Below are positions 259-30,930 of a stretch of DNA of 64,000 nucleotides, piece after piece. The position numbers were made by a program, and so were the translations under genes. The DNA lies in the NCBI GenBank assembly GCA_000002445.1, contig CM000207.1, positions 128,001-192,000 of the forward strand. The letters are read 5' to 3'. The notes under the pieces were generated by a model, which saw only the letters and a list, made by a program, of their open reading frames with translations, was not told the origin of the DNA and ran no database searches. Each line of letters begins with the position of its first letter. Position 1 is the first letter of the stretch. The DNA comes from Trypanosoma brucei (lineage: Eukaryota).

Positions 259-1680
259 ATGATCTTAACGACGAAGAGAAAACTGGAACCAATTTCAAAA
301 GCAATTAAAGTAAAAAATATTCAGTGGGCGACAGCCGCGTCGCTCTTAAGTCTAGCTATCCTAGAAGCGAAAGCAGAATACAAAGTGTGTTCAACGCCGT
401 GCTCCTGCGCCACACGGCTGGAGGAAGCAGTAGCTCATTACTCGCAGAAGCTAAGCAGCAATATAAACGGCCACAAAGAACAAGTGGCTGACTATACCCG
501 CCTACTGATTTCAGCACTAAGTGACAACATAGAGCTAGCGAGAAAGGTGCGGGTAGTACTTGCAGCGGCGGGGCAAACAATAGAAGAATGTGAGCAAGAG
601 GTGTGAACCGGGAAGCAGCCACTAACTGAAGGCCTGAAACTGTTCCACAACGCCTCGGCGAAACTGAGGACCCTCGCAAAACGCCTAAGCGTTAAACACA
701 GACTGAAGATCTCAGCAAACTCCGGCCACGGACGGTTTACGCAATCAAGCTTTGAACAGACACCAGTCACGACAGAGCAACCTTTGGCTTGTCAAACCGC
801 CGAGGACAAAGCCGAAACCGCATTCGACCCTGACCAAAACGATGACAAAAATAATGTAAAGGAATTCGCAAAGCACGACCATATCACTGTAACCTGCCAA
901 ACAACATCAGCGTCGGGCACGAACTGCCAAGGTGAGACCCCTCAAACAGGTGGAGACTACATTGAGTTTGCGTTTCACGAAGCCATCAGCGCAGACACAA
1001 CCAAAGGCGTCACTGGGTGGAGCTCACCTAACGGAGGTGATGATGTCGTATTTTCTAAAGAGGTAAACATAACTAAAGGAACAAAAGAACAAAGCAGCCG
1101 AGCTCTAAACCTTCTGAAATCATCCATAACGCCGACAGCATGCGCAGTAGGTCTACAGGATTTCAATTCCATGGCCAGTAAACAAGCATTTAGGCGGCAA
1201 GCCATTCGAACCTTCCTCGCGAACCCAGATAACGAACAGAGTGAACCAACCGATGCTCAGAAACTGCAGGAAGCATTGGATACAGCTTATGGAAAAGAAG
1301 GAGACTTCAAAACCAAGTTCTGGCAAGCTGTCGAGCAGACTAAAGCAGCTGTCACCAAAAACAAGCAAAGAATCGACGTCGACATCAAGCCAAGTATATC
1401 GATGGCGTTGCTAACTGAAGCCCTGAGCAGGCGGCTAGGTGAAATGACCGCCAAAAAAAAGAAAAGTCCAGAGGCGCCAGTTGAGGGGGAAGCAGCACAA
1501 GAGACAGCCAAACCAGAAGATAAGAAAGGCGGGGATAATAAAGCTGCAACTGCAAATTGCACCAGCCATTCAACGGAAGATGCCTACACAAAAGGACAGA
1601 ATTGCAAACTGGAAAATAAGCTTGCAAATATTCCTCTATTCTAGCAAACAAGAAATTCACTCTGATGGTTTCTGCTTCTT
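259..1680 (+). pseudogene. VSG pseudogene (in-frame stop between 606 and 784; C-terminal GPI-signal segment in a different frame)
   Basis: ORFs 259-606 and 784-1644 are in the same frame, separated by stops. N-terminal 'WATAASLLSLAILEAKA' is signal-like. Cys-rich C-terminal domain. A 'NKKFTLMVSASLALLF' GPI-signal remnant at ~1650-1695 is out of frame. A 16-mer-like motif follows at 1729-1744. Confidence 0.7.
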
Positions 1681-1728
1681 TGGCCTTGCTGTTTTAATTA
1701 CCCTCTTTTTTAAAAGAATTTTGCTGTT

Positions 1729-1744
1729 TCATATATTTTAACAC
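1729..1744 (+). promoter_or_regulatory. VSG 3'-UTR conserved 16-mer-like element (tCATATATTTTAACAC)
   Basis: Matches the T. brucei VSG 3'-UTR 16-mer TGATATATTTTAACAC at 15/16 positions, about 50 nt downstream of the VSG pseudogene end. Confidence 0.6.
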
Positions 1745-2107
1745 CTAAATTACCTGAAAAATAATTAATTTTTTTGTCTGCCTGTAGGTGTATTTTTTTG
1801 ACTGAAATTTCTCTTTTTTTTCCAGCTCTTTTTTTAAATATTTTTAGGTTTAAATTTTTTAGGTGTTTTTTTAAGATTTTTGATATTTTATCGATTTTTG
1901 AATATTTGTATTCGAGCTATTAGTTTAATTTTTTTTAGTTTTTTTTCATTTTTCCAAATTTTTTAGCTTGATTATTATTTGAATTTTTTTAATTTTTACG
2001 GTTATAAATTTATTGTTATTTTTTAGTTTTTTTGTGTTTTTTCTGAAAGTTTGTTTAAAGTGGAGTTCAAATTAAAATAAAAAAGAAGGAAAGAAGAAAT
2101 TCGGTTT

Positions 2108-2136
2108 ATTATGGTTATGGTTAGGGTTAGGGTTTT
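2108..2136 (+). repeat. Interstitial telomere-like repeat tract (GGTTAT/GGTTAG/GGGTTA)
   Basis: 'ggttatggttatggttagggttagggttt', i.e. TTAGGG hexamers with the G-strand on the + strand, downstream of a VSG 3' end and a T-rich region. Confidence 0.75.
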
Positions 2137-2215
2137 TAAGTTTTGGGGGTATTTTTTAATTCTCTTTTTTTAAAATTAGGGTTTTGTGTTTTAATTCGCC
2201 ATTTTTTAATTGTAA

Positions 2216-2512
2216 GTGATGCAGCGGCTTTTTTACGTCAATCCTAATCATTTTTCTACCAGAAGACAACTTTTATTCATATTTTTCACCTGCAGCGCCG
2301 CAAGATTTGTTACTTTCTTTTTGCTTTTGTGAATTTCAGCTCTGCGTTTTGCGCTTCGCGCGGCCTTTAAAATTTAAAAAAAACGTTGGGGCTTGGCCTA
2401 TAGCGCTGCGCGCCGCTTTTCTTTTTACGCTTCAATGAGGACTTTGGCTGCGCGAAACGACTTGCTTTTCAAGAGACGCTAACAAACAAAACTTAATATT
2501 TGGAAGTGGAAC
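2216..2512 (+). repeat. Conserved ~300-bp subtelomeric element, copy A ('GTGATGCAGCGGC...TTTGCTTTTGTGAATTT.AGCTCTGCG...CGCTGCGCGAAACGA.TTGCTTTTCAAGAG...AATATTTGG')
   Basis: Shares long blocks with 10386-10600 and 11102-11380, checked by eye. Each copy lies immediately after a TTAGGG-like tract. Confidence 0.7.
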
Positions 2513-2809
2513 AATATGGAGTTCGGAAGATAAAGCCAGCCGAAATAACAGTCTGTACCGGTCGTGGCGCGGCACAGCAACCTAGCCAAAGCAAGCGGAA
2601 GCGGCAAGCGGTTAACTCCAGCGTCAGCAGGGCAATGCAGGTACGTCGCCATTCCCCAACAGATCCGGCAGCGCCAGTCAAGGATTTTAATGCAGGACCC
2701 ATAATCCCTACTGGCATAAATCCACTGCAAAAACCAACTAAGAAACACAGAAGTAGAGGAAAAGAATAAATGCAAAACTCCAGCAAACAAAACAGCAGAA
2801 GGGTGTGCG

Positions 2810-3110
2810 GCCATTGACTATTACTATGATGAAACTAACAAAGAATACAAGACAAAACCAGGAAAAGAAAACACATCAACAGGAACAGGAAAGACAAGTA
2901 CCGGAGTAGACTGCAATAAACACCAAACACAGCGAGCCTGTGAAGCGGAAAACAAGGATGTAAAACCGGGTCAGAAAGCAGTATCTGGATGTATTGAGGA
3001 TAAGTGCAAAGATTTATTTTTTCTCTTCAGTAAGAATTTTGCTCTGATGGCTGCTTCTTTTGTGAGCTTGGTACTATTCAAGGATTTTGAATTTTTAAAT
3101 TTGTTATTTT
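2810..3110 (+). pseudogene. Orphan VSG C-terminal-domain fragment with GPI signal
   Basis: Translation '...TGVDCNKHQTQRACEAENKDVKPGQKAVSGCIEDKCKDLFFLFSKNFALMAASFVSLVLF...' is a typical VSG C-terminal domain with a hydrophobic GPI signal. There is no N-terminal domain upstream. The 16-mer variant TGATATATTTCAACAC lies at 3120-3135. Confidence 0.7.
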
Positions 3111-3119
3111 GAGAGAATT

Positions 3120-3135
3120 TGATATATTTCAACAC
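3120..3135 (+). promoter_or_regulatory. VSG 3'-UTR 16-mer variant (TGATATATTTCAACAC)
   Basis: 15/16 match to the canonical 16-mer. The identical variant recurs at 9978-9993. Confidence 0.6.
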
Positions 3136-3283
3136 CTCCTGATGATAATGTGCAAATTTTAAAAACACAAAATTATAAAATTATGGTTTCAAATTGTCCA
3201 TGGTTGTATCGTACTAATTTTATAAGAATATTAAAAGATTTATAGTGTAATTTGCTTTATTTTTCTTGTTTTATGAACGTTAG

Positions 3284-3445
3284 TTAGGGTTATAATAGTG
3301 ATAGTAAGGTGAAAGATAAGAGTAAGTTGTTAGTGTGCATATACTAATAATATACTAAGAGCAGTAATTATGATTAAAGTAATCATAATCATAATAATCA
3401 TAATTGTGTGTGCTGTGAGTGTATGATAATAATATAAGTGATGAA
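3284..3445. repeat. Degenerate 70-bp repeat region (VSG upstream recombination repeats)
   Basis: ATR-rich runs ('atcataatcataataatcataat') with degenerate 'GTTGTTAGTGTGCATATACTAATAATA' and 'GTGTGCTGTGAGTGTATGATAATAATA' cores. Confidence 0.6.
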
Positions 3446-4380
3446 CACAAATTGAATGCTCCAAATAATAGCACTTGAAGCGATAGCAAGGGTTTAATGA
3501 AGTAAGTGGGAAAAGTAGTGTGAGAGTGAGTGCTTGGGAGAGAAAGAGAACAAGAGGAACATTATGAAAGATAATGGAGAATAATTTTTTTAAAAAATGA
3601 AAATGAAAGATAAGTAGCTTACAATAAATACAAAACAATGTTCGTCTTTATACACAAGAAGATTATCGGGGAACAATATGAAAGAGACAAAATAGAGCGC
3701 AATGACCAACTATGGTCACCCCATAAGCTGCCGCGCACACACCACAGAAATTTGTGATGTATCAGTATTAGTAGGAGAAGATTGTGGCCAACATGTCACT
3801 GAAGATCTACAGATTTAGCAACACAAATTGTGATAACAGCAATAGTAACATTAGTTTAAAAGACACGATGATGGGACTTTCATGACAAAACAGGGTGGTT
3901 GATTAATTATTACAGGAAACTGGTAATATTCATAGAACATTTAAAATAATCAGTACAACTAGCTACTTCCATTCATATAACTATGCATAGAGGTAAATTT
4001 GAAGATTGTTAAACAGCAGTGGAATTCCTCTAGCATCTACTGAACCAGATTATACTAAAACTGATACTAAAACAAAAAGTTAGAGATGTATGATTAAAGA
4101 GGTGTTTCAGACACTGATAATACGTCATTTAACAACGAAATAATAACAATATTAATGTATTGTTATGTAAAACCAGTAGTGACTCAACATATTTTTTTCT
4201 TTTATTTGTTATGATTTTCTTATAACATTCTCAAATTTTTTAAGTAAATTAAGTCATTAAATTTGGTGTTTTGGAAAATTTACTATTACCATTTATATTA
4301 CATAAAGTGTTTCACAGTGCAAAAACATTTCCGGAAAAACAGGAAAATATAGAATAGGGTCAACATGGGAAGCCCAGAGT

Positions 4381-5100
4381 CTTTGTGATTGTCGTTCAAA
4401 TAATGCAACTCAAGAATGGTGTAGGCTCATATTGAGTGACAAACTAAGTAATGTTGACATAATTACAATTGCGACAGAAGGTTTGTATAACCATATTAAA
4501 AGATCTGGATAGGTTGTACAATATTGATAAAGGCATAATGCAAGTGATGAGGACAATGTTATTCATTTGGATGGGCCTGATGCTATTGTTAGTGATGGAA
4601 ATAAATATGAGAATGCTGTGGAATATTTGATACAAAATACTGCAGAAAATGAAGATAGGGTTGGTGAATAGGATATTTACAAAGAGCATGTGGAGAGATT
4701 GTTATTAGTTTTTTAATGTTGGTTACAGAAAAGAAGAGGATAATAAATTACTTTATTTACTAAAATCACCTCTTAGTAGAAAAAGCTTATCTTAGTGGCG
4801 GTGGTTTGATAGCAAGAGTTTGGGCATTTAAGAAATTTGAATATGCATTTGGAGAATTATTAAAGGGAAGTGGGGAGTGGTGGTCAGAGCAGAGTATTTA
4901 CAAACCATTGCTAATATGGAGTGCAAGTGAGGAAGAAACTGTAGGACAGAGATTTGTTTTGAGAAGTGGAATGATTGGGTTATATGATGAAGCGAGATTT
5001 TTTTCTATTCAATATGGTCAAAAAATTGGAGAAGCTTTATTCATTCCACTTTTATCCTCCATTGATTGCATGGAAGAATGAGGCGAAGTTGATTGTGAAA
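4381..5100 (+). pseudogene. Repeated subtelomeric 'X' element, copy 1 (unidentified coding remnant; ORF 4806-5081)
   Basis: About 700 bp alignable by eye to 17250-17880. The shared ORF is 'LIARVW(A/T)FKKFEYAFGELLKG..EWW.EQSIYK.LLI...ETVG.RFVLR'. It sits in the co-transposed region between a 70-bp repeat and a VSG. Family not recognised; possibly an ESAG-family remnant. Confidence 0.5.
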
Positions 5101-5813
5101 AATATCTGTTGATGTAAAGAATTGGAAGGAAGGAAATTTAGTACAAGAGATTTGGGGGAACTTCAAACATACAAGATCGATAGCGAGAAATGTTATTTAG
5201 AATTTGTGGAGATTTGTTGTGAAGTGTTTAAAGCAAGGAATATTTTTAAAGCTCAAAAACAGTAAAATTAAAATTCTGAGTCAGCTCAGGGCTTGCAGGT
5301 GCACAGACTCTCAAGGATATTTTTTTATTAAAATACAATACCTACTTTTATCCAGACTATGTTAAAAACGGAAACGCGGGCACCGACAGAAGATTAGGCT
5401 GGCTTCACTACAGAAAACTACAAAAGCAATGACATCAGAAAAGTTCTCGGTTTTGACGACTTTCGCCTTTGGGATTCAATTGCGAAAACAGCAAGCACTG
5501 GCTAGAAAATAGAAGTCAGCTAGAACTGAACCTACGGCTAAGCACGACAGCGCAACACCAACCAATGCTTAGCGATACGAAAAACATTCGGCGGCAAAAT
5601 AACAGTTCAGCGAGGTGTAGTTGTCTATAAAACAATCTTTCGCCAAAGGGCTGGGACTTACTTTAAGAAAAAAAACAAGTAAATACATACAGAGCAACTG
5701 TCAAAAACTTTAAACCGCTTTCAAAGGGCTGGAGACCTCACCCTCATCGCCGGCCAACAAACCTTAAAATACAAGCACCACCACCAGACACCCTTTCACT
5801 AACATAACAGAAA

Positions 5814-7334
5814 ATGAAAGCCAGACAAATAATTACTCACCTGGCGGTGCTGTTGCTATTAGTGACCCCGCAGGCACGGGCAGCGGCACCGGCAGATGGC
5901 GACAACTTAGCGACGCTGGCGTACTTGTGCCCCGCCCTTCAGCTAGCGGACGGCGACATAACATTGCACCCCGAACAAAGCAATCTAGATGGCAGCCTAC
6001 AAGACCTGCTAGCGCTAAACATGTCACTAGCAGACGCCGCCTGGGCAGCTCAATTCAAGGCCTCACCGCCAGGTGCAACGCCAGTAGCAGCAACCGAGCA
6101 GCAGCAGAAGCAACAAGCCGGCACGCCAGAACAAATTGCTGCCTGGACTGCCGCCAAGGCCAATGTAGATAACACCGCCAAATTCAAAGATGTACTCGCA
6201 AAATACGGTTACACTCAAGAAAACGCGTCAAAGCTAATTCCTTTGAAAGGACCAATCGCACAGTACGCTGACGCGGCGTTCGGCATACAACAAGCGACAA
6301 AGACAAGCGAAAAAGACGACAAAACAGATTCAGACCTCAAAGCTTTGATAAAAACAGCAATCTACGGCCATGACGGCGGCTACGACGCCACAAAAAAGGA
6401 AGAAATGGGGCTACAAGGGACACAAAACCGGGAAAACCACTGTACAGCACAAAGTAACAGCAACCCAATTCAAACGATTTCGACTATGGTCGCTTGTCTG
6501 TGTGCCGTAAAGGACGACATGGTGTCGGGAAAAGCACCGTGCGGGCCGCACGCAGACGCAACGCTAAAATGGCAAGCTGACGGGCCGCCACAGACGCCAC
6601 TATGGCCGAAGATCCGCTCTATCTGCCCAAAAGCCGACGGCGGAACTGTAACAGCCGACAGAATAGCAGCAGCAATAGCAGCAGCAAAGATGGCTTTCTT
6701 CAGCAAAGGCAACGATCTTTATGTCGGCAAGTTCGACATGGCCGGCTGCGACGGCAGCAACAATGGTGCCTGTATAAAGTACACAGACCAGGCGTCGAAC
6801 TCAGTACCCAGCTTCAAGCAGGCCGCATGGATAGACAAACTTGAAACTGTAGAGACATCATTGCGAACGCGCCAGCAGAACCAGGACATCCAAAAGCAGG
6901 CGCAGACAAAAATAGAAACGCTCAAGCAGCTGGTCAAAGCAGCCGCCAAACACGCAGAAAAACTTACAGCGCCAACGACGCAGCACCATAGCAACCCAAA
7001 ACTAGCCACCACAAACGACAAAAATAGCCAAGCTCAGAAAACAGCAGATTGCTCAAAACTTGAAAAAGCGGAGTGCAAGCCCGATGTGGGATGCAGATAT
7101 AACGAAACAACTAACAAATGCGAAGAAGATCCAAAAAGTCCAGTTGTGCAGGCAAACAAAGAAGCTAAAGGAGGAGCAACAAACTCTGAAGGTAAGAATT
7201 ACTCTGGCAAGAAAACTGAGGGCGAATGTAAAGATAGCTGCAAATGGGATGGAAAAGAATGCAAAGATTCCATTTTCCTTTTCCGTAAAAAATTTTTCCT
7301 GATTGTTTTTGCATTTTTGGTCTTGCTGTTTTAA
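5814..7334 (+). CDS. Variant surface glycoprotein (apparently intact, 506 aa)
   Basis: Uninterrupted ORF. Signal peptide 'MKARQIITHLAVLLLLVTPQARA'. Cys-rich C-terminal domain. C-terminal 'KDSIFLFRKKFFLIVFAFLVLLF' GPI signal. 16-mer at 7397-7412 and 70-bp repeats upstream. Confidence 0.85.
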   Translation: MKARQIITHLAVLLLLVTPQARAAAPADGDNLATLAYLCPALQLADGDITLHPEQSNLDGSLQDLLALNMSLADAAWAAQFKASPPGATPVAATEQQQKQQAGTPEQIAAWTAAKANVDNTAKFKDVLAKYGYTQENASKLIPLKGPIAQYADAAFGIQQATKTSEKDDKTDSDLKALIKTAIYGHDGGYDATKKEEMGLQGTQNRENHCTAQSNSNPIQTISTMVACLCAVKDDMVSGKAPCGPHADATLKWQADGPPQTPLWPKIRSICPKADGGTVTADRIAAAIAAAKMAFFSKGNDLYVGKFDMAGCDGSNNGACIKYTDQASNSVPSFKQAAWIDKLETVETSLRTRQQNQDIQKQAQTKIETLKQLVKAAAKHAEKLTAPTTQHHSNPKLATTNDKNSQAQKTADCSKLEKAECKPDVGCRYNETTNKCEEDPKSPVVQANKEAKGGATNSEGKNYSGKKTEGECKDSCKWDGKECKDSIFLFRKKFFLIVFAFLVLLF

Positions 7335-7396
7335 CATTTTAAAACTTACAATGGTTTTTGTTTATTTTTGTGAAACTTATGTTACTTTCTAAAATT

Positions 7397-7412
7397 TAAT
7401 ATATTTTAACAC
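7397..7412 (+). promoter_or_regulatory. VSG 3'-UTR 16-mer (TAATATATTTTAACAC)
   Basis: 15/16 match to TGATATATTTTAACAC, about 60 nt after the VSG stop. Confidence 0.65.
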
Positions 7413-7577
7413 TCTTTATCAAGAATTTGCAAATTATTGTCTCTTTTTGAAAATATAAAAAATGTTTACAAACGTTTCAAATAGAAATAAAGTAGAGGTG
7501 TAATAGGGTATAAAAATGGGTGATATTCTAATTTGTTTATTCAGTTATTTTTTGATTTTATTAAATGGATATTTACT

Positions 7578-7848
7578 ATTGTTATAATAATGATAAAAAT
7601 AGGAGAGTGTTGTGAGTGTGTGCATACAAATATAATAATATAGTAATAATAAATAATAATAATAATAGTAATAATAATAATAATCATGATAATAATAATA
7701 AATAATAGGAGTGTGTTGTGAGTGCGTATATACGAATATTATAATAAGAGCAGTAATAATAATAGTAATAATAATAATAATAATGATAATAATAGGAGAG
7801 TGTTGTGAGTGTGTGTATATACAAATATTATAATAAGATCGGTGATAA
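7578..7848. repeat. 70-bp repeat array (about 3 units)
   Basis: Three units of (TAA/TAG/TGA)n followed by 'GGAGAGTGTTGTGAGTGTGTGCATACAAATATTATAATAAGA'-type cores (cores near 7604, 7709, 7797), immediately upstream of the VSG at 8315. Confidence 0.9.
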
Positions 7849-8314
7849 TGACAGAACCAACAAAAGCAGTAGTTCATAAAGTCGTGGTGATGGAATTTAC
7901 TTGAAAACTGTTGTTGTGGGATCTTATAAGAAGTAAATTAAATATTGAGTGGTTATTGACAGCAAAAAACAGTCCTCAATTTAAGAAGCAGATAATATAC
8001 CACAATCCTGACATTTTGTAAAAAACAAGGCACATACTATCAACTATAAGTGCTTTAAAACCAATTGAAGTCAGCACAAAGGCTACACAACTAAACTAAA
8101 ACGCAGAATACACAGCATTCACACCAAGTAAAGCAGCGCAATAGCTACATCATGCTAAATTAAACACTATATCCAGGGAATACGTCTGCTCACCACAAAA
8201 CTAACCTAAACTCGCGAAAATGACACAAATAACTCTGTCCACCGTTTGAAATCGGTAACAGGAAAGGTAAGAGAGAACGACGGCCCGCAAAGCAGAACCA
8301 AAGAAGCGATCGAA

Positions 8315-9913
8315 ATGACGGCACCAGTGTTGGGGGCTACCATGCTAACCATTGCGCTCCACCTCGTCACCTCTGGAAGCCTGGCAACGATACCGGAAGG
8401 AGCAAACAAGCACGAGCACGCGGTGTTGTGCGAAGTACTAGCGATTGTAGATGCCGACCTCGACATACCCCCACAAGAAAGTGTCGACGAGGCAAGCTAC
8501 AACAAAATACGTAACCTCAATTTTTCGACATCGACGACCGACTGGCGGAAGACGTTCTACTCAGACGACGCTCTAACGAAACCCCACCCAGAGGCCCAGC
8601 CGGCGCACAAGAAAATAGCAGACTACGCCAAATACTGGCCAGACTGGCATGGGGCGGCCACAGCATTAGCAGCAACGAAGAAACCAGACGAGGTTGAGAA
8701 AGCCAAACTGGACGAGCTAACACACCAGAGCCGGCAGATAGCACACGCCCGCGTACGGGCTATAGCAGAAACAGCTCGGGCGGCTAAAGAAAAGGCGCTA
8801 CAAACAGCCGGCGAAGCCGAAGTAATCGACAAGGCGGAGGAGCTGAAAGCACTGAAAACAGTTTTTTTCGGAGCAGATTCCGCAGCGGCGGCGACGGTAA
8901 CGACAACAAATGCGTTCGGCACGGGAACAATCAACGCCCGGCAAACAGCATGCGAGGCAGACCCAGCAGATGGCAAGGCGAAAACTCTAGTCGCACAGCT
9001 AATGTGCGTATGCACAAAAGCGACTCAAGGGTCGGCCCTCAGCAAAGCATGCACAGCGGCAGCAGACGGCAGCCAGGGATGGAACAGCGGTTCGGGGTCT
9101 CCCGCTGACACTGACGCCAGCGCAGTCGCCAAAACGTGTGCAAACACCGGAGAGAGCAAGATAACCGCCACGCGCTTGCGACAAGCAATAACCAACGTCG
9201 CAAAACTAGTACACCTAACAAGCGACGGTACCGGCTACATCGGCGTATACCAAGCAACAGGTTGCACCGGGGCCGACAACGCCGGCATGTGCGTCAAGAT
9301 ACCAAACTATAAATCGAATCCTACAGACGGGATTAAAAAGCTACAGTGGACATCAACCCTGGAAAACCTCGCTAACAAACTAGAAGCTAGAACCAGGTAC
9401 AACACCATTATCTCTAAACTAAACGAACAGCTACGATCCAGCTCAGAGCAAGCCGAAGAAACTATTCAACTAACAAAGCGAGAAGAAGCCGCTAGATCAA
9501 CAGCCACCAAAGAACAAACTCAAAAGTCCACCACAGCGACTCAGGCGCAAAACACCCTCATTAATGAGTGCGAAAAAATAACCAAAGCAGCGCAATGCAA
9601 GGAAAAAAAGCCGGCATGCGAATGGCAAAACAAAGCCGCCGAAGATGGCCCCCACTGCAAATTGAATGCGACGAATGTAGAACAACAAGCAACTCAAGCA
9701 GGAACAGGAGATGGAGCTGCAGCAACAACAACAGATAAGTGTGGTGCGGCAAAAACTCCTGAGGAATGTGCTGCAGTAAAGGGTGAAATTCCGAAAGATA
9801 AAAAAGCTGTTTGTGGTTGGATTGAAGGCAAATGTCAGGATTCCAGTATTATTATCAATAAGAAATTCGCCCTCAGCGTGGTTTCTGCTGCTTTTATGGC
9901 CTTGCTTTTCTAA
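8315..9913 (+). CDS. Variant surface glycoprotein (apparently intact; b-type N-terminal domain)
   Basis: The ORF runs from 8246, but the likely start is ATG 8315 (signal 'MTAPVLGATMLTIALHLVTSGSLA'). 'CVC' and 'GTGYIGVYQATGCTGADNAGMCVKIP' motifs are typical of b-type VSG N-domains. C-terminal 'INKKFALSVVSAAFMALLF' GPI signal. 16-mer variant at 9978-9993. Confidence 0.85.
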   Translation: MTAPVLGATMLTIALHLVTSGSLATIPEGANKHEHAVLCEVLAIVDADLDIPPQESVDEASYNKIRNLNFSTSTTDWRKTFYSDDALTKPHPEAQPAHKKIADYAKYWPDWHGAATALAATKKPDEVEKAKLDELTHQSRQIAHARVRAIAETARAAKEKALQTAGEAEVIDKAEELKALKTVFFGADSAAAATVTTTNAFGTGTINARQTACEADPADGKAKTLVAQLMCVCTKATQGSALSKACTAAADGSQGWNSGSGSPADTDASAVAKTCANTGESKITATRLRQAITNVAKLVHLTSDGTGYIGVYQATGCTGADNAGMCVKIPNYKSNPTDGIKKLQWTSTLENLANKLEARTRYNTIISKLNEQLRSSSEQAEETIQLTKREEAARSTATKEQTQKSTTATQAQNTLINECEKITKAAQCKEKKPACEWQNKAAEDGPHCKLNATNVEQQATQAGTGDGAAATTTDKCGAAKTPEECAAVKGEIPKDKKAVCGWIEGKCQDSSIIINKKFALSVVSAAFMALLF

Positions 9914-9977
9914 AAGAATTTTTTCCCCCCTCAACTTTTCCCCTCTTTTTAAAGAATTTTTGCTACTTGAAAACTTC

Positions 9978-9993
9978 TGATATATTTCAACAC
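9978..9993 (+). promoter_or_regulatory. VSG 3'-UTR 16-mer variant (TGATATATTTCAACAC)
   Basis: Same T-to-C variant as at 3120-3135. Confidence 0.6.
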
Positions 9994-10106
9994 GTAAAAC
10001 CTGCCGAGTTTTTTTTGTTTGTGTGTTTGTAAAAACATTCTGATTCTGTGAAAAATGTTTTCTGGAAATTAAATTTTTTTCTTCTTTCCTGTTTTTTGGA
10101 GTTTTT

Positions 10107-10172
10107 GTAGGTAGGTAGGTGGGGGGGGAGTGAGGCTAGTTAGGTTAGTTAGGTTAGTTAGGGTTAGGGTTA
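10107..10172 (+). repeat. Interstitial telomere-like repeats (GTAGGT / GTTAGG / TTAGGG)
   Basis: 'gtaggtaggtaggtggggggggagtgaggctagttaggttagttaggttagttagggttagggtta'. Confidence 0.75.
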
Positions 10173-10231
10173 CTTTTCCTCTTTTTCTTTTTTTACCCCG
10201 CACCTCTGTCCTGGATTTTTAAATTTTTTTT

Positions 10232-10600
10232 TAGTCATGCAGCGACTCCTTTTTTTTTTTTTACAATACCTTGCTGATTTTTGTTCCTTTAATGATGCAA
10301 CGGCTATTTTATTATATTTTGCCCCGGCGCAGGCGATAAGATTTATTATGTTTTTTTATACCAGGTTGCTGATTTTTTTATATTAGTGATGCAGCGGCTG
10401 TTTTTATATTCATTTTTACCGCGCCATCATTACGCGTTTGTTACTTCTTTTGCTTTTGTGAATTTAAGCTCTGCGATTTGGGCGGCAATCGGACAACAAA
10501 ATTTTCAAAAAAAAACGCTGGCGCGTGGCAGTTTCGCTGCGCGAAACGATTTGCTTTTAAGAGGGAAATAATTTAAAAATACTAATATTTGTGGGATAGC
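10232..10600 (+). repeat. Conserved subtelomeric element, partial tandem pieces (10232-10385) plus copy B (10386-10600)
   Basis: 'GTGATGCAGCGGCT...TTTGTTACTTCTTTTGCTTTTGTGAATTTAAGCTCTGCG...CGCTGCGCGAAACGATTTGCTTTTAAGAG...ACTAATATTTGTGGGATAGC' aligns to copies A and C. Upstream partial 'catgcagcgac' and 'tgatgcaacggct' starts suggest tandem fragments. Confidence 0.7.
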
Positions 10601-10689
10601 CGATCATCAAAATTAGCCATTAACCCTCAGCAACACAATCCAACGCTGCCACCCGACGGTTGAAGCCGCTCAACTGGCAGAGTGAAGTT

Positions 10690-11040
10690 TTATTTATTTA
10701 TTTTTTAATTCATTTTTTTTAATTTTAATTTTTTTCGTTCTTTTGTTCCGTTTTTTTTGAAAAATTAATTTTTTTTGCCGCATTTTACAGCACACACTTT
10801 CTATTTTTAACTTTCTTTTAATTTCCTTCGGGACCCGGTTTATATTTTTTTTAGATTTTTTTTAAAATTTTTTTCCACTTTTTTTTTCGAATTTTTTTAA
10901 ATTTTTATTCGAATTTATAATTTTTTTTGATTCACTTACAATTTTTAATTTTTAGGCCTTTGGTTTTTTCAGATTTTTGAATTTTTTGTTTTAGCGCGCA
11001 ACTTTTTTTTTTGCGCCCATTTTTTTGTTCGCCGCCCGAC
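10690..11040. repeat. T-rich low-complexity tract (AATTTTTT-type)
   Basis: Long runs of T and 'aatttttt' motifs, similar to 1750-2060 and 10000-10100. Resembles the T-rich spacer between a telomeric VSG and the telomere tract. Confidence 0.6.
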
Positions 11041-11051
11041 AAGCGGTGTTT

Positions 11052-11086
11052 CGGGTTAGCGGGTTCGGGTTAGGGTTAGGGTTAGT
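11052..11086 (+). repeat. Interstitial telomere-like repeats (GGGTTAG)n
   Basis: 'gggttagcgggttcgggttagggttagggttag'. Confidence 0.75.
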
Positions 11087-11101
11087 AATTTCTCTTTTTA
11101 A

Positions 11102-11462
11102 GTGATGCAGCGGCTCTTTTTTTTGATACGTGCCCTAAGCCTCATTTACCCAGCAGACATATTCGTCTTCATATTTTTCGCCTACAGCTTCGCCTCGATT
11201 TGTTACTCTTATGTTCATTTTTCTTTTGTTAATTTCAACTATACGGTTTGCGCTGCACACAGCTTCAAAAATATTTTTTTTCTTTTACGCTGCCGCGTTG
11301 TAGTTTCTCTCAACGAAACGATTTGTTTTCAAAAGAAAAAAAGAAAATATACTAATATTTGTGGGTAGCTAATTATCACGATTAGCAGTTAAGCAGTGGC
11401 TTCTCAATCAGGCGCCGTCACGTCAGCGGCTGAAGCCACTAAACCTCCAGGGTTGCGTTTTT
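11102..11462 (+). repeat. Conserved subtelomeric element, copy C
   Basis: Begins 'GTGATGCAGCGGCTC' and contains 'GATTTGTTACTCTTATG...', 'CAACGAAACGATTTGTTTTCAAAAG' and 'ACTAATATTTGTGGGTAGCTAATTATCACGATTAGC' blocks shared with copies A and B. Confidence 0.7.
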
Positions 11463-11479
11463 AACCCCGAATGAGACGA

Positions 11480-11775
11480 GAACAAAAAGTGAACTTTGAG
11501 TGGGGAAGCCAAACAAAAAGCAGCAGAACAAGCAAACTAAGCAGAAGGGAAAGATGGGAAAAATAATGACGACAAGAAATGTGCCGATTTTAAGACACAG
11601 CAAGAATACTAGGCGGCTGACGGTCCAAAACCAGCAGGAAAGAACAAATTTTGTGGTTGGATAGGAGAGGATGCCAGTGGAGGGTGATAAAGGTTTCAAA
11701 TATCGCTCTTCCAGTATTCTCGTCAATAAGAAATTGACTCTAAGTATGGCTTCTGATTTTGTGAGATTAATATAA
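11480..11775 (+). pseudogene. Orphan VSG C-terminal fragment (degenerate)
   Basis: '...KNKFCGWIGEDASGG' with a stop, then 'LVNKKLTLSMASDFVRLI' GPI-signal-like tail. Degenerate 16-mer 'TGATATCTTTTAACAG' at 11865-11880. Confidence 0.6.
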
Positions 11776-12044
11776 TTCTAATGATTTTTTAAATACTCAT
11801 TAATCTTATGAAATTTTGCTATTTCGTAAGCATTTGTTAAATTTTTTAAAAATATAATGACATCTGATATCTTTTAACAGTTTTTGATATAAATCTGCAC
11901 TTTTTAAAAAGTGTGTGTAAAAGTGGGTTACCGGTGCAGGGTATCAAAGTGATGGAGTATAAAAAATGCGTACTCATATATAATTTTCTAATTTGGTTCA
12001 TTTTTTGTCTTGTGGATATTTGTTAAGGCCATAAAAGTGATGCT

Positions 12045-12112
12045 TATAATAATAATAATGAAAATAATAATGTGAGAGCGTTGTTAGTGTGTGTATATAC
12101 TAATATTATCAA
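12045..12112. repeat. 70-bp repeat (single unit)
   Basis: 'aataataataatgaaaataataatgtgagagcgttgttagtgtgtgtatatactaatattatcaataa'. Confidence 0.8.
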
Positions 12113-13254
12113 TAAAAACAATTATGAATAGTAAGTGGATGGTTGAAAGAAAATTAGTTAATACAATGGAAAGCGTGCGATGGGGGTGATTAAATAAGGT
12201 AGAAATGGTGGATTAGAATGAAAATGGGTATCATTATAGAATGAAATGAAGTGATGAAACTGATTGTACGCATTGTCATGAGAAGAAAGTGACAAGACAT
12301 TATTATATGATATAATTTTGAGGATGCGATAATTGAGACACACAGCACGATACATCGAACAAATGTAGCAACTGCGTTGTACACAGTGATAGAACAAGGA
12401 GATAATGCTAACTAAAGTTCAAGGTGAAGGAGACAGTAAATGGATAAGAAACCACGTATATGAATCAATGAGCAATCTCTATAAAGTGGAAAGGATCAAT
12501 GGTTATATCCCTTCAATTCCCCATCGGTATACACGCTAGACGCTAAGAAATATAAGGAATGATTAAGGTATGTAAAAGTGGTTACATGCCTTAAGCCGAA
12601 AACAAACATTAACAAAATAAAAGTAGCGAAGAAGACATTTTCTGGCCACAAATTGCCTTGTCTTAAGCGTAAAAATCGCAAGATGGCAGAGCTAAATGAT
12701 GAAAAACAGGAGCTTCAAAGAAATTCTGACAGTGAAAAGCTTCTTGTTACTTTGTTATTCCAGCACCAGTTAGTACGGATAAAACTGTGGAAAAACAAAA
12801 ATTAATAATAGCCCTAAAGACTGAAATTTCATATATGTAAAGTTTGTCGACAGTTTGGAACAATTAGAAGCTATAATGTTGGAGAATACGTGGATATTTG
12901 ATATACCGAGAGGAATCAAGATGTTGTAGATTTTTATTAATGTGTTTAAATTAGTGTTTGGATATAAAAGAAAAGCCGTCAGCTGTTGACAGTTGGTTCT
13001 ACTCAACAAAGACGAACAATATTAAAGAAGTGCAACAGAAGTCGAGCTCAAACCAGCGAGACGATATGCACTCAAAGAGAGTAAAAACCCTAAAGTAAAC
13101 GATGTGCCCCGGCTAACTTCAATATTAAGATCAGACGTAGCGAAGACCACCGTAAGAAGAGAACTAAACGCCTCAACAACAACTTTTCTACGACCTGATT
13201 CTAACTTACGCCGACAAGAACAATAATGACTCTAATAAATTTATTTTTGAGTCG

Positions 13255-15910: not shown

Positions 15911-16902
15911 GTGAAGTGTTTGAAGAGCAGCTGCATAATAATAGTTTATTTAATTTATATTGTTACGGCGATAAATGCACTTGTGTCGCTATACAGCTTA
16001 TTTGACGTGTGTAACACTATTTTACTAGAAGTTGATGATGATGAGTATATGAAATTTGTTTCAAAATATGTGAGGAGTATTTGGAGAACTGAAAATAATT
16101 TGGTTGTGGCTGGAATACCTTTCATAGATAATAATGAAATATTGAGAAGGAGGAATTTACAGAGAAAGAAACGTGTTGGGCTTATCCTGAAGTGGCAAGG
16201 AAATCAAATAACTTTACTGGCAAGTTGCTTATAATTTATGCCATTTCACCTCATACATATAACAATTGTGAGCTAAGAGAAGTTGTTTAAGAAGGGGAAT
16301 ATTTAAACAAGTACATTATTATTTTACCTGTTTGTGATGTAAATCCAACAACAAATAAGAAAGTGGGAGAGGCGCGTAATTTGGGATGGGAAGCAGAACT
16401 CACAGTTAGTAGAAAAACATATTTGTGATTCAAATTTGCCGTTGAAATATTTTATAAAAATAGTCCCTATATAATGAAAGCAGATGATGACATTTTTATA
16501 AGAGTACCACTCTATCTGAAATATCTAGAGGTGCTTCAAAGAGAGAAATTGAACATGAGAAGGGAAATTGGATATCCTAAAGATTTTAGTGATGAAATTA
16601 CATGGCATACCATTGGATATGCGTCCACACTGTCCAAAGATGTAGTTAAGGAAATTGTGGATTATAAACCTTTGAAAGACCTAGTGAAATCACCAATTAA
16701 ATTCAGAAATTTCGAATCATATATTGATTTAAGAGCACTTAATGAAGATATTATGATTGGGGAAGTTATAAGGAACAAATTAAAATTTGAGGGTTTACTG
16801 ACTGTAGATATGCAGGTGTGTCGTTATGTGATGCATACGAACAGGAGCGCTTCCTACGAAACTAATTTGACGACTGAAAAACTATCGTTTCCCATCATAT
16901 AA
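15911..16902 (+). pseudogene. Glycosyltransferase-like (beta-3-GT / GT67-type, DxD) pseudogene; paralogue of the gene at 58829-59881
   Basis: ORFs 15911-16234 (frame 2) and 16474-16902 (frame 1) together parallel the intact 350-aa ORF at 58829: 'VVAGIPFIDNNEILRRRNLQRKKR', 'MKADDDIFIRVPLYLKYL', 'ALNEDIMIGEVIRNKLKFEGLLTVDMQ'. The frameshift at ~16240-16470 marks it as a pseudogene. Confidence 0.65.
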
Positions 16903-20192: not shown

Positions 20193-21689
20193 GGTGGTTG
20201 TAAAGAGTAAGTGCAAGGCGAAATAGAAGTACATAAAAATGAGTATAGTGCAATAAGTGACAGTGTGAGTGTAAAAAGAGTGTTATTAATATAAAATGGA
20301 GAAAAGGGGAAGCAAAAACGTGTAGTTTTAAATACAAATATGACAATAGGAATAATTATACACAACACGATTGTAGAAGACAATGAGGGAGAGGAAGAGC
20401 ATGGATTTAATACCAAATGAAGTAGTTATGTTATCCATGTAAGCATGAAAAGAAAAAAGTAAAAGGAGCAAAACATGGATTGGAAAAACGAGATTCACAA
20501 CATGAAAGTACAGAAGAAAATAAGTAGGAAGATTGTGCTCTTCATTTCACCAATAAAAAGATGGACGCTTCCGCGAAAATAATGGTGGCGACTGTGGTTT
20601 TAAATCTAACGCCAGATCCTAACGTTCATCTATAGAGCCTCAGCAGAGGCAGAAACGATGGATTGGATAAGTGTGAGGTAATGGCGAAGTCCTTTTCCAA
20701 TCAGATATAGTAATAAAAGTTAAAATTTGCGGGAAACAATATAATGCTATGTGTAGAAAAGGTTCTATACTAGGGTTACCAATGGATTTCCATGAAGAGA
20801 AAAGAATAAGAAGCCTGCTAAACTGCTTGAAAAAGCGCATCTGTGGACTTTTAGAAGTACTTTGCATAAAGTTAAAAAGTTTTGTGACAACGTGCTGACA
20901 ATTCTATGCAGGTACACGTGTGTAAAAATGACGCCTCCTAAAGATCATACAATTAATGAAAACTTTGTCAATGACACCAACTAAAACTGAATCTTAAAAA
21001 AGTAAAACTTAAAATGCAGCTATTCGTGATCCGCAAATTACTGTGTTTTAAACTGTAGCGCAGTTAACCCACCAGCACCACTAAAAAGAAGTTAACTCAA
21101 CAACGAAAGCTTGGAAAACAAATACTTTATTATGCTTTTTTAACCTAGAGTAGTGCAACGAGTTAACACAAAAATAGATTTCATTACAAGCGATAACTAT
21201 TATATTTTATATTAGGGAATTATTAGTGCTTGGTGAAAGAATGGAAAGTGAAGCAGCGGAAGAAAAGATAGGAATTTTATAGATGCGGGTAAACATGGGT
21301 TTAAATCTGGTACGCAATCATAAATTAGAAGTTAAAGCGTAAAAAAGTAACCCATATACGTGGGTAACCTGTGTATAGCCTGGAGACCCAAAATCGGTAG
21401 GTGCAAGATACTCAGTTTTAGTTGCTGCATACAGTGTCAGGTTTCCAGGCAGATGCTGCTAACAAAGCATGCCATGACCGCATAAGCCGTCTTGTAGCAT
21501 GGAATGACCTGCTAACACCGGCTGACCGACCATGCTACCTAGTCTTAACCAAAACAACAGAGGCTATTCAGTAAGGTGTCTCACTGAAAAGACTGGTTTT
21601 TCTATGCTTAATTGCCGCCTACAACACATAGAAGCAATATGAACAAGATTTTGCCTACAGTAGGTGAGGCAACGTCGCTTCCACGCCGA

Positions 21690-29847: not shown

Positions 29848-30930
29848 TCAGATGGAAGAATTAGCGGTGGTAACATTACCAGCAACATCAATGTCGAACA
29901 GCAGCGACGTGAAGTTGTTATGCACCTTGTTAAATTGGGAGTGAAGAGAGGTGATATTTGACACCATTCCAAGAAGCATGGAAGGTGGCTGTCCGGCAGC
30001 AAAAGGTGTGATGAGGGGGCCAAATATTTCTTGCACCTTGACTTTAAGTTGAAAAGAAGCTCCACGATCTCGAACTTCTTTCCATTCCAATGCATCATTT
30101 GAGTTCTTAACTGCACCACTCCTATACAAATTATCCCTTGGAAGGTTGAAGCACTCCCTTACAGAACCATTCTGTACTGTTACTGCAAGACAACCGTCCT
30201 TATACGTTTTGAGAGTGCTCTCGTTTACAGTTTTTGCCAGAGGGCATGTTTGGTCAGCACACGGTGTTAACAACCCCTTAACCCTTTGAAAGGTTCGTTC
30301 TTCACATTTAGCAGTGCCTCCTGCTTCTACAGCCTTAACATCATCCCAAGCTGTCCGTGTTATCTCAGCAATAGATGCATAGTATTTATTTGCTGTTGTG
30401 AGAGCATCAGGTAAATATTTCCTCACTGCCCTCACACTCTCATTAACTTCAGAAAATAATCCACCTACTTTCGCTACAAGGTCTCCCATTTCATTTCCAT
30501 AAGATATAAGCTTTTCCATTTTCTTACGTTGGTCTCCCATTGCACTACTTACAACACTCAAATATTTTGTGCTTTCACCTGTTTTACCTTCCATGTCATC
30601 CAGTATACGAGATGCATTTGCGTATACTTCCTCATTCACAAGCATTTTCCTCTCGCCATCAGTGTATAATTTATTCAACGCATTCGAGAGACAACGAAGA
30701 TAACATAAAGTCTCTTTCAAATTCTTTTTGTAATAATCGTCGACCAGCGTGCATGGACCCTCTTCCTCTGCACCACCAATGCAAATTACAAAAAGTGAGA
30801 AAGCTAGGCATCGCTCAACAATAACCTTCATTTCCTTTAAAGCTGTACACAAAAAAATGTGGCACAGACATTTCATCGAACCGAATAAACTGCAGGCATG
30901 TAGTGGTAACGGATAAGTGATTTTACACAA
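29848..30930 (-). CDS. Secreted helical surface-protein-like ORF (360 aa); possibly transferrin-receptor/ESAG6-7/PAG-like or another a-type VSG-fold family member (unassigned)
   Basis: Long uninterrupted minus-strand ORF. N-terminal hydrophobic signal ('...CLAFSLFVICIGGA'). Long predicted helical stretches, then a Cys-containing region ('CADQTCPLAKTV...DGCLAVTVQNGSVREC'). N-glycosylation sequons. No C-terminal GPI hydrophobic tail (ends 'NVTTANSSI'). Confidence 0.5.
   Translation of the reverse strand: MCKITYPLPLHACSLFGSMKCLCHIFLCTALKEMKVIVERCLAFSLFVICIGGAEEEGPCTLVDDYYKKNLKETLCYLRCLSNALNKLYTDGERKMLVNEEVYANASRILDDMEGKTGESTKYLSVVSSAMGDQRKKMEKLISYGNEMGDLVAKVGGLFSEVNESVRAVRKYLPDALTTANKYYASIAEITRTAWDDVKAVEAGGTAKCEERTFQRVKGLLTPCADQTCPLAKTVNESTLKTYKDGCLAVTVQNGSVRECFNLPRDNLYRSGAVKNSNDALEWKEVRDRGASFQLKVKVQEIFGPLITPFAAGQPPSMLLGMVSNITSLHSQFNKVHNNFTSLLFDIDVAGNVTTANSSI

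What the first reader, a model, noticed from the sequence alone, without database searches (positions are those of the whole stretch)
1700..2512. Fossil telomere junction inside the array (first of three): VSG 3' end, T-rich spacer, short (TTAGGG)n, conserved ~300-bp element
The order VSG end, 16-mer, ~350 nt of T-rich DNA, 'ggttatggttagggttaggg', then a conserved 'GTGATGCAGCGGC...' element mirrors what sits between a telomeric VSG and the chromosome-end repeat tract. Here it is followed by more array. Interstitial G-strand TTAGGG in the same orientation as VSG transcription suggests this stretch was once a telomere-proximal VSG locus that was healed, fused or captured into a chromosome-internal array.
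Basis: partly seen in the sequence, partly recalled or inferred. Interest (0 to 1): 0.6.

Follow-up and report, generated by a model that had tools for sequence, protein, structure and literature searches.

The report
Telomere-type VSG 3' flank inside array
A Trypanosoma brucei surface-antigen pseudogene in a chromosome-internal array is followed by the kind of non-coding tail, with a short TTAGGG tract, that normally marks antigen genes next to chromosome ends; it is a real and repeated recombination scar, but the TTAGGG tract is probably a standard internal part of that tail and not the stump of an old telomere.

Summary
Window 1697-2512 reads as follows: VSG pseudogene stop, short 3'UTR with the 16-mer, 364 nt of 54%-T DNA, TTATGGTTATGGTTAGGGTTAGGG, then an element of about 300 bp that starts with GTGATGCAGCGGC. 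Two more copies lie at 9994-10690 and 10690-11438, and a paralogue lies in a T. equiperdum VSG array.

The window is T. brucei TREU927 subtelomeric array DNA.

Published work treats 'TTAGGG-like repeats 3' of telomere-proximal VSGs' as a hallmark. At the live VSG221 telomere such a tract sits 200-300 bp after the gene, several hundred bp before the real terminal repeats. So the unit looks like a telomere-type VSG 3' flank that has moved into an array.

The TTAGGG tract is not the old chromosome end. The DNA distal to it is conserved in every copy, and the unit repeats in tandem. The actual breakpoint is further right, where each unit abuts an orphan VSG C-terminal fragment (3 of 3 cases).

I could not compare sequence with true telomeric flanks, because no T. 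brucei expression-site DNA was reachable with these tools.

This is a known kind of feature in a less usual place. Interest is modest.

The parts
259..1696 (+). VSG pseudogene upstream of unit A (frameshifts and an in-frame stop; GPI-signal end ...SSILANKKFTLMVSASLALLF*)
   Evidence: Read directly from the sequence; ORF list.
1697..1744 (+). Short VSG 3'UTR of the CCCTCTTTTTTAAAAGAATTTTGCT type, ending in the 16-mer TCATATATTTTAACAC (1729-1744)
   Evidence: 1 mismatch to the 16-mer.
1745..2108 (+). T-rich spacer of unit A (54% T, 20% G+C), with short-period T-tract repeats (period about 9-10)
   Evidence: composition; TTTAATTTTT x7 at 1924-1997; periodicity, z=8 at period 9.
2109..2132 (+). 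TTAGGG-like tract of unit A: TTATGG TTATGG TTAGGG TTAGGG, G-strand in the VSG's orientation
2133..2215 (+). T-rich linker containing TTTTGGGGG and one more TTAGGG (2176-2181)
   Evidence: (direct repeat D7).
2216..2512 (+). Conserved element A. It begins with the invariant 13-mer GTGATGCAGCGGC (2216-2228), is followed by a CCTAA motif in C-strand orientation (2246), and contains the conserved blocks TTTGTTACT, TTTTGCTTTTGTGAATTT.AGCTCTGCG, CGAAACGA.TTGCTTTT and TAATATTTG.
   Evidence: alignments; blastn 70-75% identity to the copies at 10437-10563 and 11096-11272.
2513..2755 (+). Unassigned junction DNA between element A and the orphan VSG fragment. It aligns only weakly to the tails of copies B and C. 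The recombination breakpoint probably lies here.
   Evidence: No blastn, tblastx or blastx match; weak MAFFT alignment.
2756..3135 (+). Orphan VSG C-terminal-domain fragment with its own long-type 3'UTR and 16-mer (3120-3135). 70-bp-repeat-like DNA follows (3320-3423).
   Evidence: blastx to P0021 from 2756; tblastn 2909-3139.
8315..9913 (+). Intact VSG (532 aa) upstream of unit B; 100% identical to a T. brucei brucei TREU927 VSG
9914..9993 (+). VSG221-like short 3'UTR (TTTTTCCCCCCTCAACTTTTCCC...) with the 16-mer at 9978-9993
   Evidence: the VSG221 3'UTR primer 221Uxho matches at 9920 with 4 edits and nowhere else.
9994..10106 (+). Short spacer of unit B (51% T), conserved with the T. equiperdum paralogue
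10107..10172 (+). TTAGGG-like tract of unit B: (TAGG)3 TG8 AG TGAGG CTAG (TTAGG TTAG)2 TTAGGG TTAGGG TTA. It starts 194 nt after the VSG stop.
   Evidence: The composition matches the published description of the VSG221 tract.
10214..10690 (+). Element B: three partial core copies (GTCATGCAGCGAC at 10234, ATGATGCAACGGC at 10292, exact GTGATGCAGCGGC at 10386), then the body and tail of the element
   Evidence: (direct repeats D5, D6, D8).
10690..11046 (+). T-rich spacer of unit C (57% T; TTTAAATTTTT x6 at 10839-10906). It follows unit B directly, with no VSG between.
11047..11084 (+). TTAGGG-like tract of unit C: TGTTTC GGGTTA GC GGGTTC GGGTTA GGGTTA GGGTTA
   Evidence: (D10).
11102..11438 (+). 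Element C (exact 13-mer at 11102-11114; CCCTAAG in C-strand orientation at 11132)
11439..11880 (+). Second orphan VSG C-terminal fragment, with 3'UTR and a degenerate 16-mer (11865-11880); a 70-bp repeat follows (12074)
   Evidence: blastx from 11439; tblastn 11439-11772.

Best explanation
Window 1697-2512 is one copy of a modular, non-coding, telomere-type VSG 3' flank. The module runs: short 3'UTR with the 16-mer, T-rich spacer, short degenerate TTAGGG-like tract in G-strand orientation, then a 0.3-0.47 kb element with more G+C that starts with GTGATGCAGCGGC.

This kind of flank normally lies between a telomere-proximal VSG and the terminal repeats. There the TTAGGG-like tract is already an internal feature, and it can act as a seed for new telomere addition.

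Here a VSG carrying such a flank has become joined to array DNA. The route was either gene conversion or break-induced replication from a telomeric donor into an array gene, or capture of distal array DNA by an eroded chromosome end. The join lies in the C-terminal coding region of a resident VSG, whose 3' remnant survives as an orphan fragment.

The scar is therefore at the boundary between the unit and the orphan fragment (about 2513-2755), not at the TTAGGG tract. In its present array position the unit is most likely passive, at most a latent telomere seed.

- **Shown:** the anatomy, the repetition, the conservation and the association with orphan fragments.
- **Inferred:** the telomeric origin (from published descriptions, not from sequence comparison) and the recombination route.
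For: 1. Three units lie in the window and one in a T. equiperdum array. All have the same part order and orientation.
2. The tract geometry in unit B (starts 194 nt after the stop) and in L001 (185 nt) matches VSG221, as does the T1-2AG1-6 plus T2AG(G/A)(G/A/C) composition. The published references are AJ271641 nt 211-322 and mispriming about 300 bp after VSG2.
3. Hall et al. 2013 treat TTAGGG-like repeats 3' of a VSG as diagnostic of telomere-proximal VSGs, citing Aline & Stuart 1989.
4. The unit-bearing VSG at 8315-9913 has a VSG221-like 3'UTR.
5. The flank lengths of 1.06, 1.53 and 1.25 kb fall in the 0.2-1.59 kb range measured for 17 cloned expression sites.
6. All three orphan VSG C-terminal fragments seen are immediately preceded by a unit. 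Each carries the other, long 3'UTR type, followed by 70-bp repeats.
7. DNA distal to the tract is conserved between copies, and the unit is tandem (B then C). The tract is therefore inside the module.
Against: - No real T. brucei telomere-adjacent sequence could be fetched, so homology of the spacer and element to true telomere-proximal DNA is untested.
- Four published primers from the last few hundred bp before the telomere repeats of the VSG2 and VSG3 expression sites do not match the units above background. The element is therefore not the same sequence as those two ends, at least at those sites.
- Unit A has a much longer spacer (413 nt from the stop to the tract) than VSG221.
- All four units seen are array-internal, so the family could be native to arrays.
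- About 3 of 12 VSG 3' ends examined carry a unit, which is frequent for a rare-accident model.
Confidence: 0.6

Rival explanations
1. Literal fossil telomere. The short (TTAGGG)2-3 is the eroded stump of a former terminal repeat tract. The sequence to its right was joined to it by fusion, healing or capture, so the junction is at the tract itself.
For: - The tract is in G-strand orientation, pointing away from the VSG, in all copies.
- The tract follows a VSG 3' end at a distance typical of expression sites.
- T. brucei can seed and heal telomeres on such tracts.
Against: - The DNA immediately distal to the tract is the same conserved element in A, B, C and the T. equiperdum copy. Independent fusions would give unrelated distal sequence.
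- B and C are tandem, 912 bp apart, with no VSG between.
- The live VSG221 and VSG2 telomere already has an internal tract of this kind well before the terminal repeats.
- There is no head-to-head CCCTAA array.
Confidence: 0.12
2. Array-native repeat family. The unit is simply one of several VSG 3'-flank or intergenic repeat types that evolved and spread within subtelomeric arrays by segmental duplication. Its short TTAGGG-like tract is a component with no history at a chromosome end.
For: - All four copies observed are array-internal. L001 lies at least 25 kb from its contig end.
- Copies are old: 70-75% identity.
- Primers from two real expression-site ends do not match.
- The frequency is about 3 of 12 VSG 3' ends in the DNA examined.
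Against: - The geometry and composition of the tract, and the 3'UTR type, match a bona fide telomeric VSG.
- The field uses such repeats as a telomere-proximity marker.
- This model does not predict the constant association with an orphan C-terminal fragment of a different 3'UTR class.
Confidence: 0.2
3. Telomerase-RNA retrocopy, like the TERC-flanked interstitial telomeric sequences of vertebrates. Telomerase repaired a break by adding TTAGGG, then read through its template boundary. On this view the element is the reverse complement of the roughly 370 nt of T. brucei telomerase RNA upstream of the template.
For: - The element is 300-470 bp long.
- The T. brucei telomerase RNA template lies at about nt 370 of a trans-spliced RNA.
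- The precedent in vertebrates appeared in the literature search.
Against: - No spliced-leader remnant is detectable at the distal end of the element above background.
- The distance and sequence between tract and core are not constant (84, 62 and 18 nt), so there is no fixed template-boundary junction.
- The core is itself triplicated in B and duplicated in L001.
- No Rfam match and no conserved fold.
- The telomerase RNA sequence itself was not available for comparison.
Confidence: 0.03

Closest known systems
'TTAGGG-like' repeats 3' of telomere-proximal VSGs (Aline & Stuart 1989, as cited by Hall et al. 2013), exemplified by the VSG221/VSG2 T2AG3-like tract (AJ271641 nt 211-322; Glover et al. 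2007; Kieft et al. 2024)
   Same: A short degenerate G-strand tract lies a few hundred bp after the VSG stop, in the VSG's orientation, preceded by a VSG221-like 3'UTR with the 16-mer and followed by non-telomeric DNA. The composition is T1-2AG1-6 units followed by TTAGG(G) repeats.
   Different: Here the flank is followed by an orphan VSG fragment and more array instead of terminal repeats. The tracts are shorter (24-66 bp against 106 bp). Unit A has a 413-nt gap from the stop to the tract. Sequence identity with the published flanks could not be tested, and four primers from two expression-site ends do not match.
Internal telomere-like tracts between subtelomeric repeat modules in other eukaryotes: TG1-3 between yeast X and Y' elements, and (TTAGGG)n islands at human subtelomeric block boundaries (from general knowledge)
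   Same: Short telomere-like tracts in telomere orientation are embedded between tandem, diverged subtelomeric modules. They are usually read as traces of past end-based recombination.
   Different: The taxa and sequences are unrelated. Here the modules are tied to antigen-gene cassettes, and the module boundary coincides with a truncated gene.
Short interstitial telomeric sequences of vertebrates, including those flanked by telomerase-RNA retrocopies (papers listed)
   Same: A few TTAGGG repeats at a non-terminal site.
   Different: Vertebrate short interstitial sequences are insertions at unique break sites with unrelated flanks. Here both flanks are conserved parts of a repeat family, and no spliced-leader remnant is present.
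Minichromosome subtelomere organisation: G+C-rich direct repeats separated by bent A+T-rich DNA next to telomere-derived repeats (Weiden et al. 1991; recalled from memory, not read here)
   Same: G+C-richer elements alternate with T-rich DNA carrying short-period T-tracts, next to telomere-like repeats.
   Different: The published sizes (74 bp and about 155 bp) differ from those here (about 300-470 bp and 110-420 bp). No sequence comparison was possible.

Membership tests
Telomere-proximal VSG 3' flank with TTAGGG-like repeats (Aline & Stuart 1989 type; VSG221 example) | A degenerate TTAGGG-like tract, in G-strand and VSG orientation, within a few hundred bp 3' of a VSG stop codon | tested here: met
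   The tract starts 413 nt (A), 194 nt (B) and 185 nt (L001) after the stop. The published VSG221 tract lies at nt 211-322 of its flank, and mispriming occurs about 300 bp after VSG2. Unit C is not directly behind a VSG.
Telomere-proximal VSG 3' flank with TTAGGG-like repeats (Aline & Stuart 1989 type; VSG221 example) | The flank ends in the terminal (TTAGGG)n array of a chromosome | tested here: not met
   Each flank runs into an orphan VSG C-terminal fragment, 70-bp repeats and further VSGs. No long TTAGGG array lies anywhere in the 64 kb.
Telomere-proximal VSG 3' flank with TTAGGG-like repeats (Aline & Stuart 1989 type; VSG221 example) | Nucleotide similarity of the spacer and distal element to flanks of bona fide telomeric VSGs | not testable with these tools
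   VSG221 and the TREU927 VSG are not in the contig index, and no T. brucei expression-site DNA was reachable. The only proxies are a VSG221 3'UTR primer, which matches at 9920, and four telomere-adjacent primers, which do not match.
Fossil telomere, healed or fused chromosome end | An abrupt junction of telomere repeats to unrelated sequence, unique to each event (or head-to-head arrays for a fusion) | tested here: not met
   The sequence distal to the tract is a conserved element in all 4 copies, and the units are tandem. There is no inverted CCCTAA array, only 5-7 nt CCCTAA-like motifs in the window copies and 22-30 nt imperfect ones in L001.
Interstitial telomeric sequence (generic) | At least 2 tandem telomere hexamers at a non-terminal position, more than chance gives | tested here: met
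   Three sites against 0.17 expected; all on the + strand.
Telomerase-RNA-flanked interstitial telomeric sequence | The flank next to the repeats is the reverse complement of the telomerase RNA 5' of its template (here it would end in a spliced-leader copy) | tested here: inconclusive
   Spliced-leader similarity at the element ends is within background. The tract-to-core spacing is variable.
Structured non-coding RNA gene | A match to a known RNA family, or a conserved fold with covariation | tested here: not met
   No Rfam match with E<0.3 in 1500-12200. The RNAalifold consensus is -14 kcal/mol over 342 columns with an unfavourable covariation term.

The most novel reading that the evidence does not exclude
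The perfect (TTAGGG)2-3 and the invariant GTGATGCAGCGGC core survive in every copy, although the surrounding DNA has diverged by 25-30%. They may therefore be kept by selection as cis-acting sites: latent telomere seeds, or TRF/RAP1-type or other protein-binding sites. Such sites, scattered through the silent arrays, would let a break distal to them be healed so that an array VSG becomes a new telomeric, activatable VSG. They might also nucleate silent chromatin.
Probability: 0.15. Interest if true: 0.6.

Novelty: new member of a known kind. Interest (0 to 1): 0.3.

Why it matters
If confirmed genome-wide, telomere-type 3' flanks followed by orphan C-terminal fragments would be a simple sequence signature of traffic between telomeric VSG sites and the silent arrays. 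That signature could date and count how the archive is rebuilt. It could also help explain why many array gene fragments are C-terminal remnants; I recall about 18% of array VSGs being fragments, a figure not checked here. The internal tracts are also candidate sites where broken subtelomeres could be re-capped, as shown experimentally for VSG221. As a single locus, it adds little beyond what has been known since 1989 about sequences 3' of telomeric VSGs.

Tried and rejected
**Attempts to reach true telomeric VSG flanks**
The window VSG identified TREU927. A C-terminal-domain profile returned only 3 hits.
2. VSG221 and the TREU927 proteins are not in the contig index.
3. Only T. equiperdum loci came back. 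L001 was useful; L002-L004 had no informative 3' flank.
4. A metagenome scan for an element 28-mer found nothing.

**Other tests that gave nothing**
5. A possible fourth copy at 21212-21260 (single TTAGGG plus GTGAAGCAGCGGA) does not align and was rejected.
6. No reading frame is conserved in the element. Each copy opens MQRLF..., but the frames then diverge.
7. Rfam and a consensus fold found nothing.
8. Published primers next to the VSG2 and VSG3 telomeres, and the spliced leader, match only at background level.
9. T-tract phasing is present but the period is inconsistent (9, 10.5, 9-11.5), so I make no firm claim of DNA bending.

**Literature**
10. Marcello & Barry 2007, Horn et al. 2000 and Dreesen et al. 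2005 are not held. No held paper was found that describes interstitial TTAGGG tracts in T. brucei arrays.

Full report
**Source and context.** The intact VSG at 8315-9913 is 100% identical to a Trypanosoma brucei brucei TREU927 VSG on a 3.06 Mb chromosome record. The left 24 kb of the window is a head-to-tail array of VSG genes and pseudogenes on the + strand. The array shows 70-bp repeats and the 3'UTR 16-mer.

**Observation.**
- The frameshifted VSG pseudogene 259-1696 ends with a GPI-signal reading and a stop at 1694-1696.
- A 48-nt 3'UTR ends in TCATATATTTTAACAC (1729-1744), one mismatch from the 16-mer.
- 1745-2108 is 54% T and 20% G+C.
- 2109-2132 reads TTATGG TTATGG TTAGGG TTAGGG.
- After an 84-nt T-rich linker that holds one more TTAGGG, the element starts with GTGATGCAGCGGC at 2216 and runs to about 2512.

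Tandem TTAGGG occurs at three places, all on the + strand, against 0.17 expected. The exact 13-mer occurs three times, each just downstream of one of these tracts. Single hexamers are at chance level.

**The family.** I call the copies A, B and C.
- A runs from 1697 to 2512.
- B runs from 9914 to 10690, behind the intact VSG.
- C runs from 10690 to 11438. It follows B directly, with no VSG between, and its tract lies 912 bp after B's.

The element copies are 70-75% identical and share several conserved blocks. B carries three partial copies of the core.

A fourth unit lies in a T. equiperdum VSG array. This is L001, which starts 625 nt into a 21.6 kb locus and lies at least 25 kb from the contig end. 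Its order is VSG stop, VSG221-like 3'UTR with an exact 16-mer, a spacer alignable with B's, G5 TTAG TTAGG TTAGGG TTAGGG TTAC, then two core copies inside a 408-bp tandem duplication, then T-rich DNA.

In all copies the core is followed by a short CCCTAA-like motif in the opposite orientation. In L001 this motif extends to a C-rich run that is 70-73% complementary to the upstream G-rich tract.

**What follows each unit.** A, C and the L001 unit each abut a VSG C-terminal-domain fragment. The fragment starts are 2756, 11439 and about L001:1870. Each fragment has its own 3'UTR, of a different and longer type, followed by 70-bp repeats. These are the only orphan C-terminal fragments I found in the window and L001, so the association is 3 of 3. 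Between element A and its orphan fragment lie 243 nt (2513-2755) with no clear relative.

**Comparison with live telomeres, from the literature only.**
- Glover et al. 2007 describe, downstream of VSG221, [quoted passage not shown] at nt 211-322 of AJ271641. They show that it seeds new telomeres in about 10% of cells after the terminal tract is cut off. Glover et al. 2013 confirm this.
- Kieft et al. 2024 find that a CCCTAA primer misprimes about 300 bp after VSG2, while the true repeats begin about 0.8 kb after the gene.
- Hertz-Fowler et al. 2008 measured 200-1590 nt between the VSG and the telomere repeats in 17 cloned expression sites.

Unit B fits these descriptions. Its tract starts 194 nt after the stop and has the same odd composition. 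Its VSG has a 3'UTR that matches a VSG221 3'UTR primer. The whole flanks here measure 1.06-1.53 kb.

**Interpretation.** The arrangement is best read as a telomere-type VSG 3' flank now sitting inside an array.
- The TTAGGG tract is not the stump of the terminal repeats. At VSG221 the equivalent tract is internal, and here the DNA distal to it is conserved among copies and tandemly repeated.
- The discontinuity that records the rearrangement is therefore the boundary between the unit and the orphan fragment.

Two routes give this structure, and I cannot separate them. One is copying of a telomeric cassette, with its flank, into an array gene: the copy starts in the 70-bp repeats and ends non-homologously in the resident gene's C-terminal region. 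The other is an eroded chromosome end invading another array within a VSG C-terminal region and copying outward.

**Limits.** I could not obtain any true T. brucei telomere-adjacent DNA. Four published primers from the last few hundred bp of the VSG2 and VSG3 expression sites do not match the units above noise. The element is thus not demonstrably present at those two ends. An array-native origin of the family remains possible; I give it 0.2.

**Other ideas tested.**
- The element has no conserved reading frame, no Rfam match and no conserved fold.
- A telomerase-RNA retrocopy was considered, because the T. brucei template lies about 370 nt into a trans-spliced RNA. There is no spliced-leader remnant, and the spacing between tract and core varies from 18 to 84 nt.

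**Conservation.** Two or three perfect TTAGGG repeats and the 13-mer core persist in every copy although their surroundings are 25-30% diverged. This hints at constraint, or at repeated correction against telomeric copies. A latent telomere-seed role is the most concrete possibility, given the VSG221 experiments, but nothing here tests it.

**Verdict.** This is a real, repeated feature of a known kind in a less usual, array-internal position. It is useful as a marker of exchange between telomeres and arrays. It is not a surprise to specialists.

Noticed in passing
window 29848-30930 (- strand): A full-length-looking ESAG1 ORF (Pfam PF03238, E=1.8e-115) on the opposite strand to the left-hand VSG array. 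This is an expression-site-associated gene family member in array context, which also hints at expression-site-derived DNA in this region.
   Followed up: partly
window 2756-3135 and 11439-11880; L001 about 1870-2340: All three orphan VSG C-terminal fragments seen are immediately preceded by a telomere-type flank unit and carry a different (long) 3'UTR class from the VSG upstream of the unit.
   Followed up: yes
window 2216, 10386, 11102; L001 982 and 1392: The 13-mer GTGATGCAGCGGC is exact in four copies and 12/13 in a fifth, although the flanks are only 70-75% identical. In four copies it is preceded by TTGCTGATTTTTT.TATTA. No known motif was recognised.
   Followed up: partly
window 2246-2250, 11132-11137; L001 1009-1030 and 1409-1438: A CCCTAA-like C-strand motif lies just after each core, inverted relative to the upstream TTAGGG tract. 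In T. equiperdum it extends to a C-rich run that is 70-73% complementary to the G-rich tract over 22-30 nt. The meaning is unknown.
   Followed up: partly
window 1924-1997 and 10839-10906: The T-rich spacers contain short-period T-tract repeats (TTTAATTTTT x7; TTTAAATTTTT x6). Spectral peaks lie at periods 9 and 10.5 (z=8 and 5), which may indicate intrinsically curved DNA, but the period is not consistent between copies.
   Followed up: partly
window 16474-16902 and 58829-59881 (+ strand): Glycosyltransferase-like ORFs lie among the VSGs. 58829-59881 gives a weak Pfam galactosyltransferase match; I judged 16474-16902 by eye only and ran no search on it.
   Followed up: no
window 37311-38327 (- strand): A B-type VSG fragment lies on the minus strand, so gene orientation switches somewhere between about 24 kb and 37 kb. 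No telomere-like tract marks the switch.
   Followed up: no
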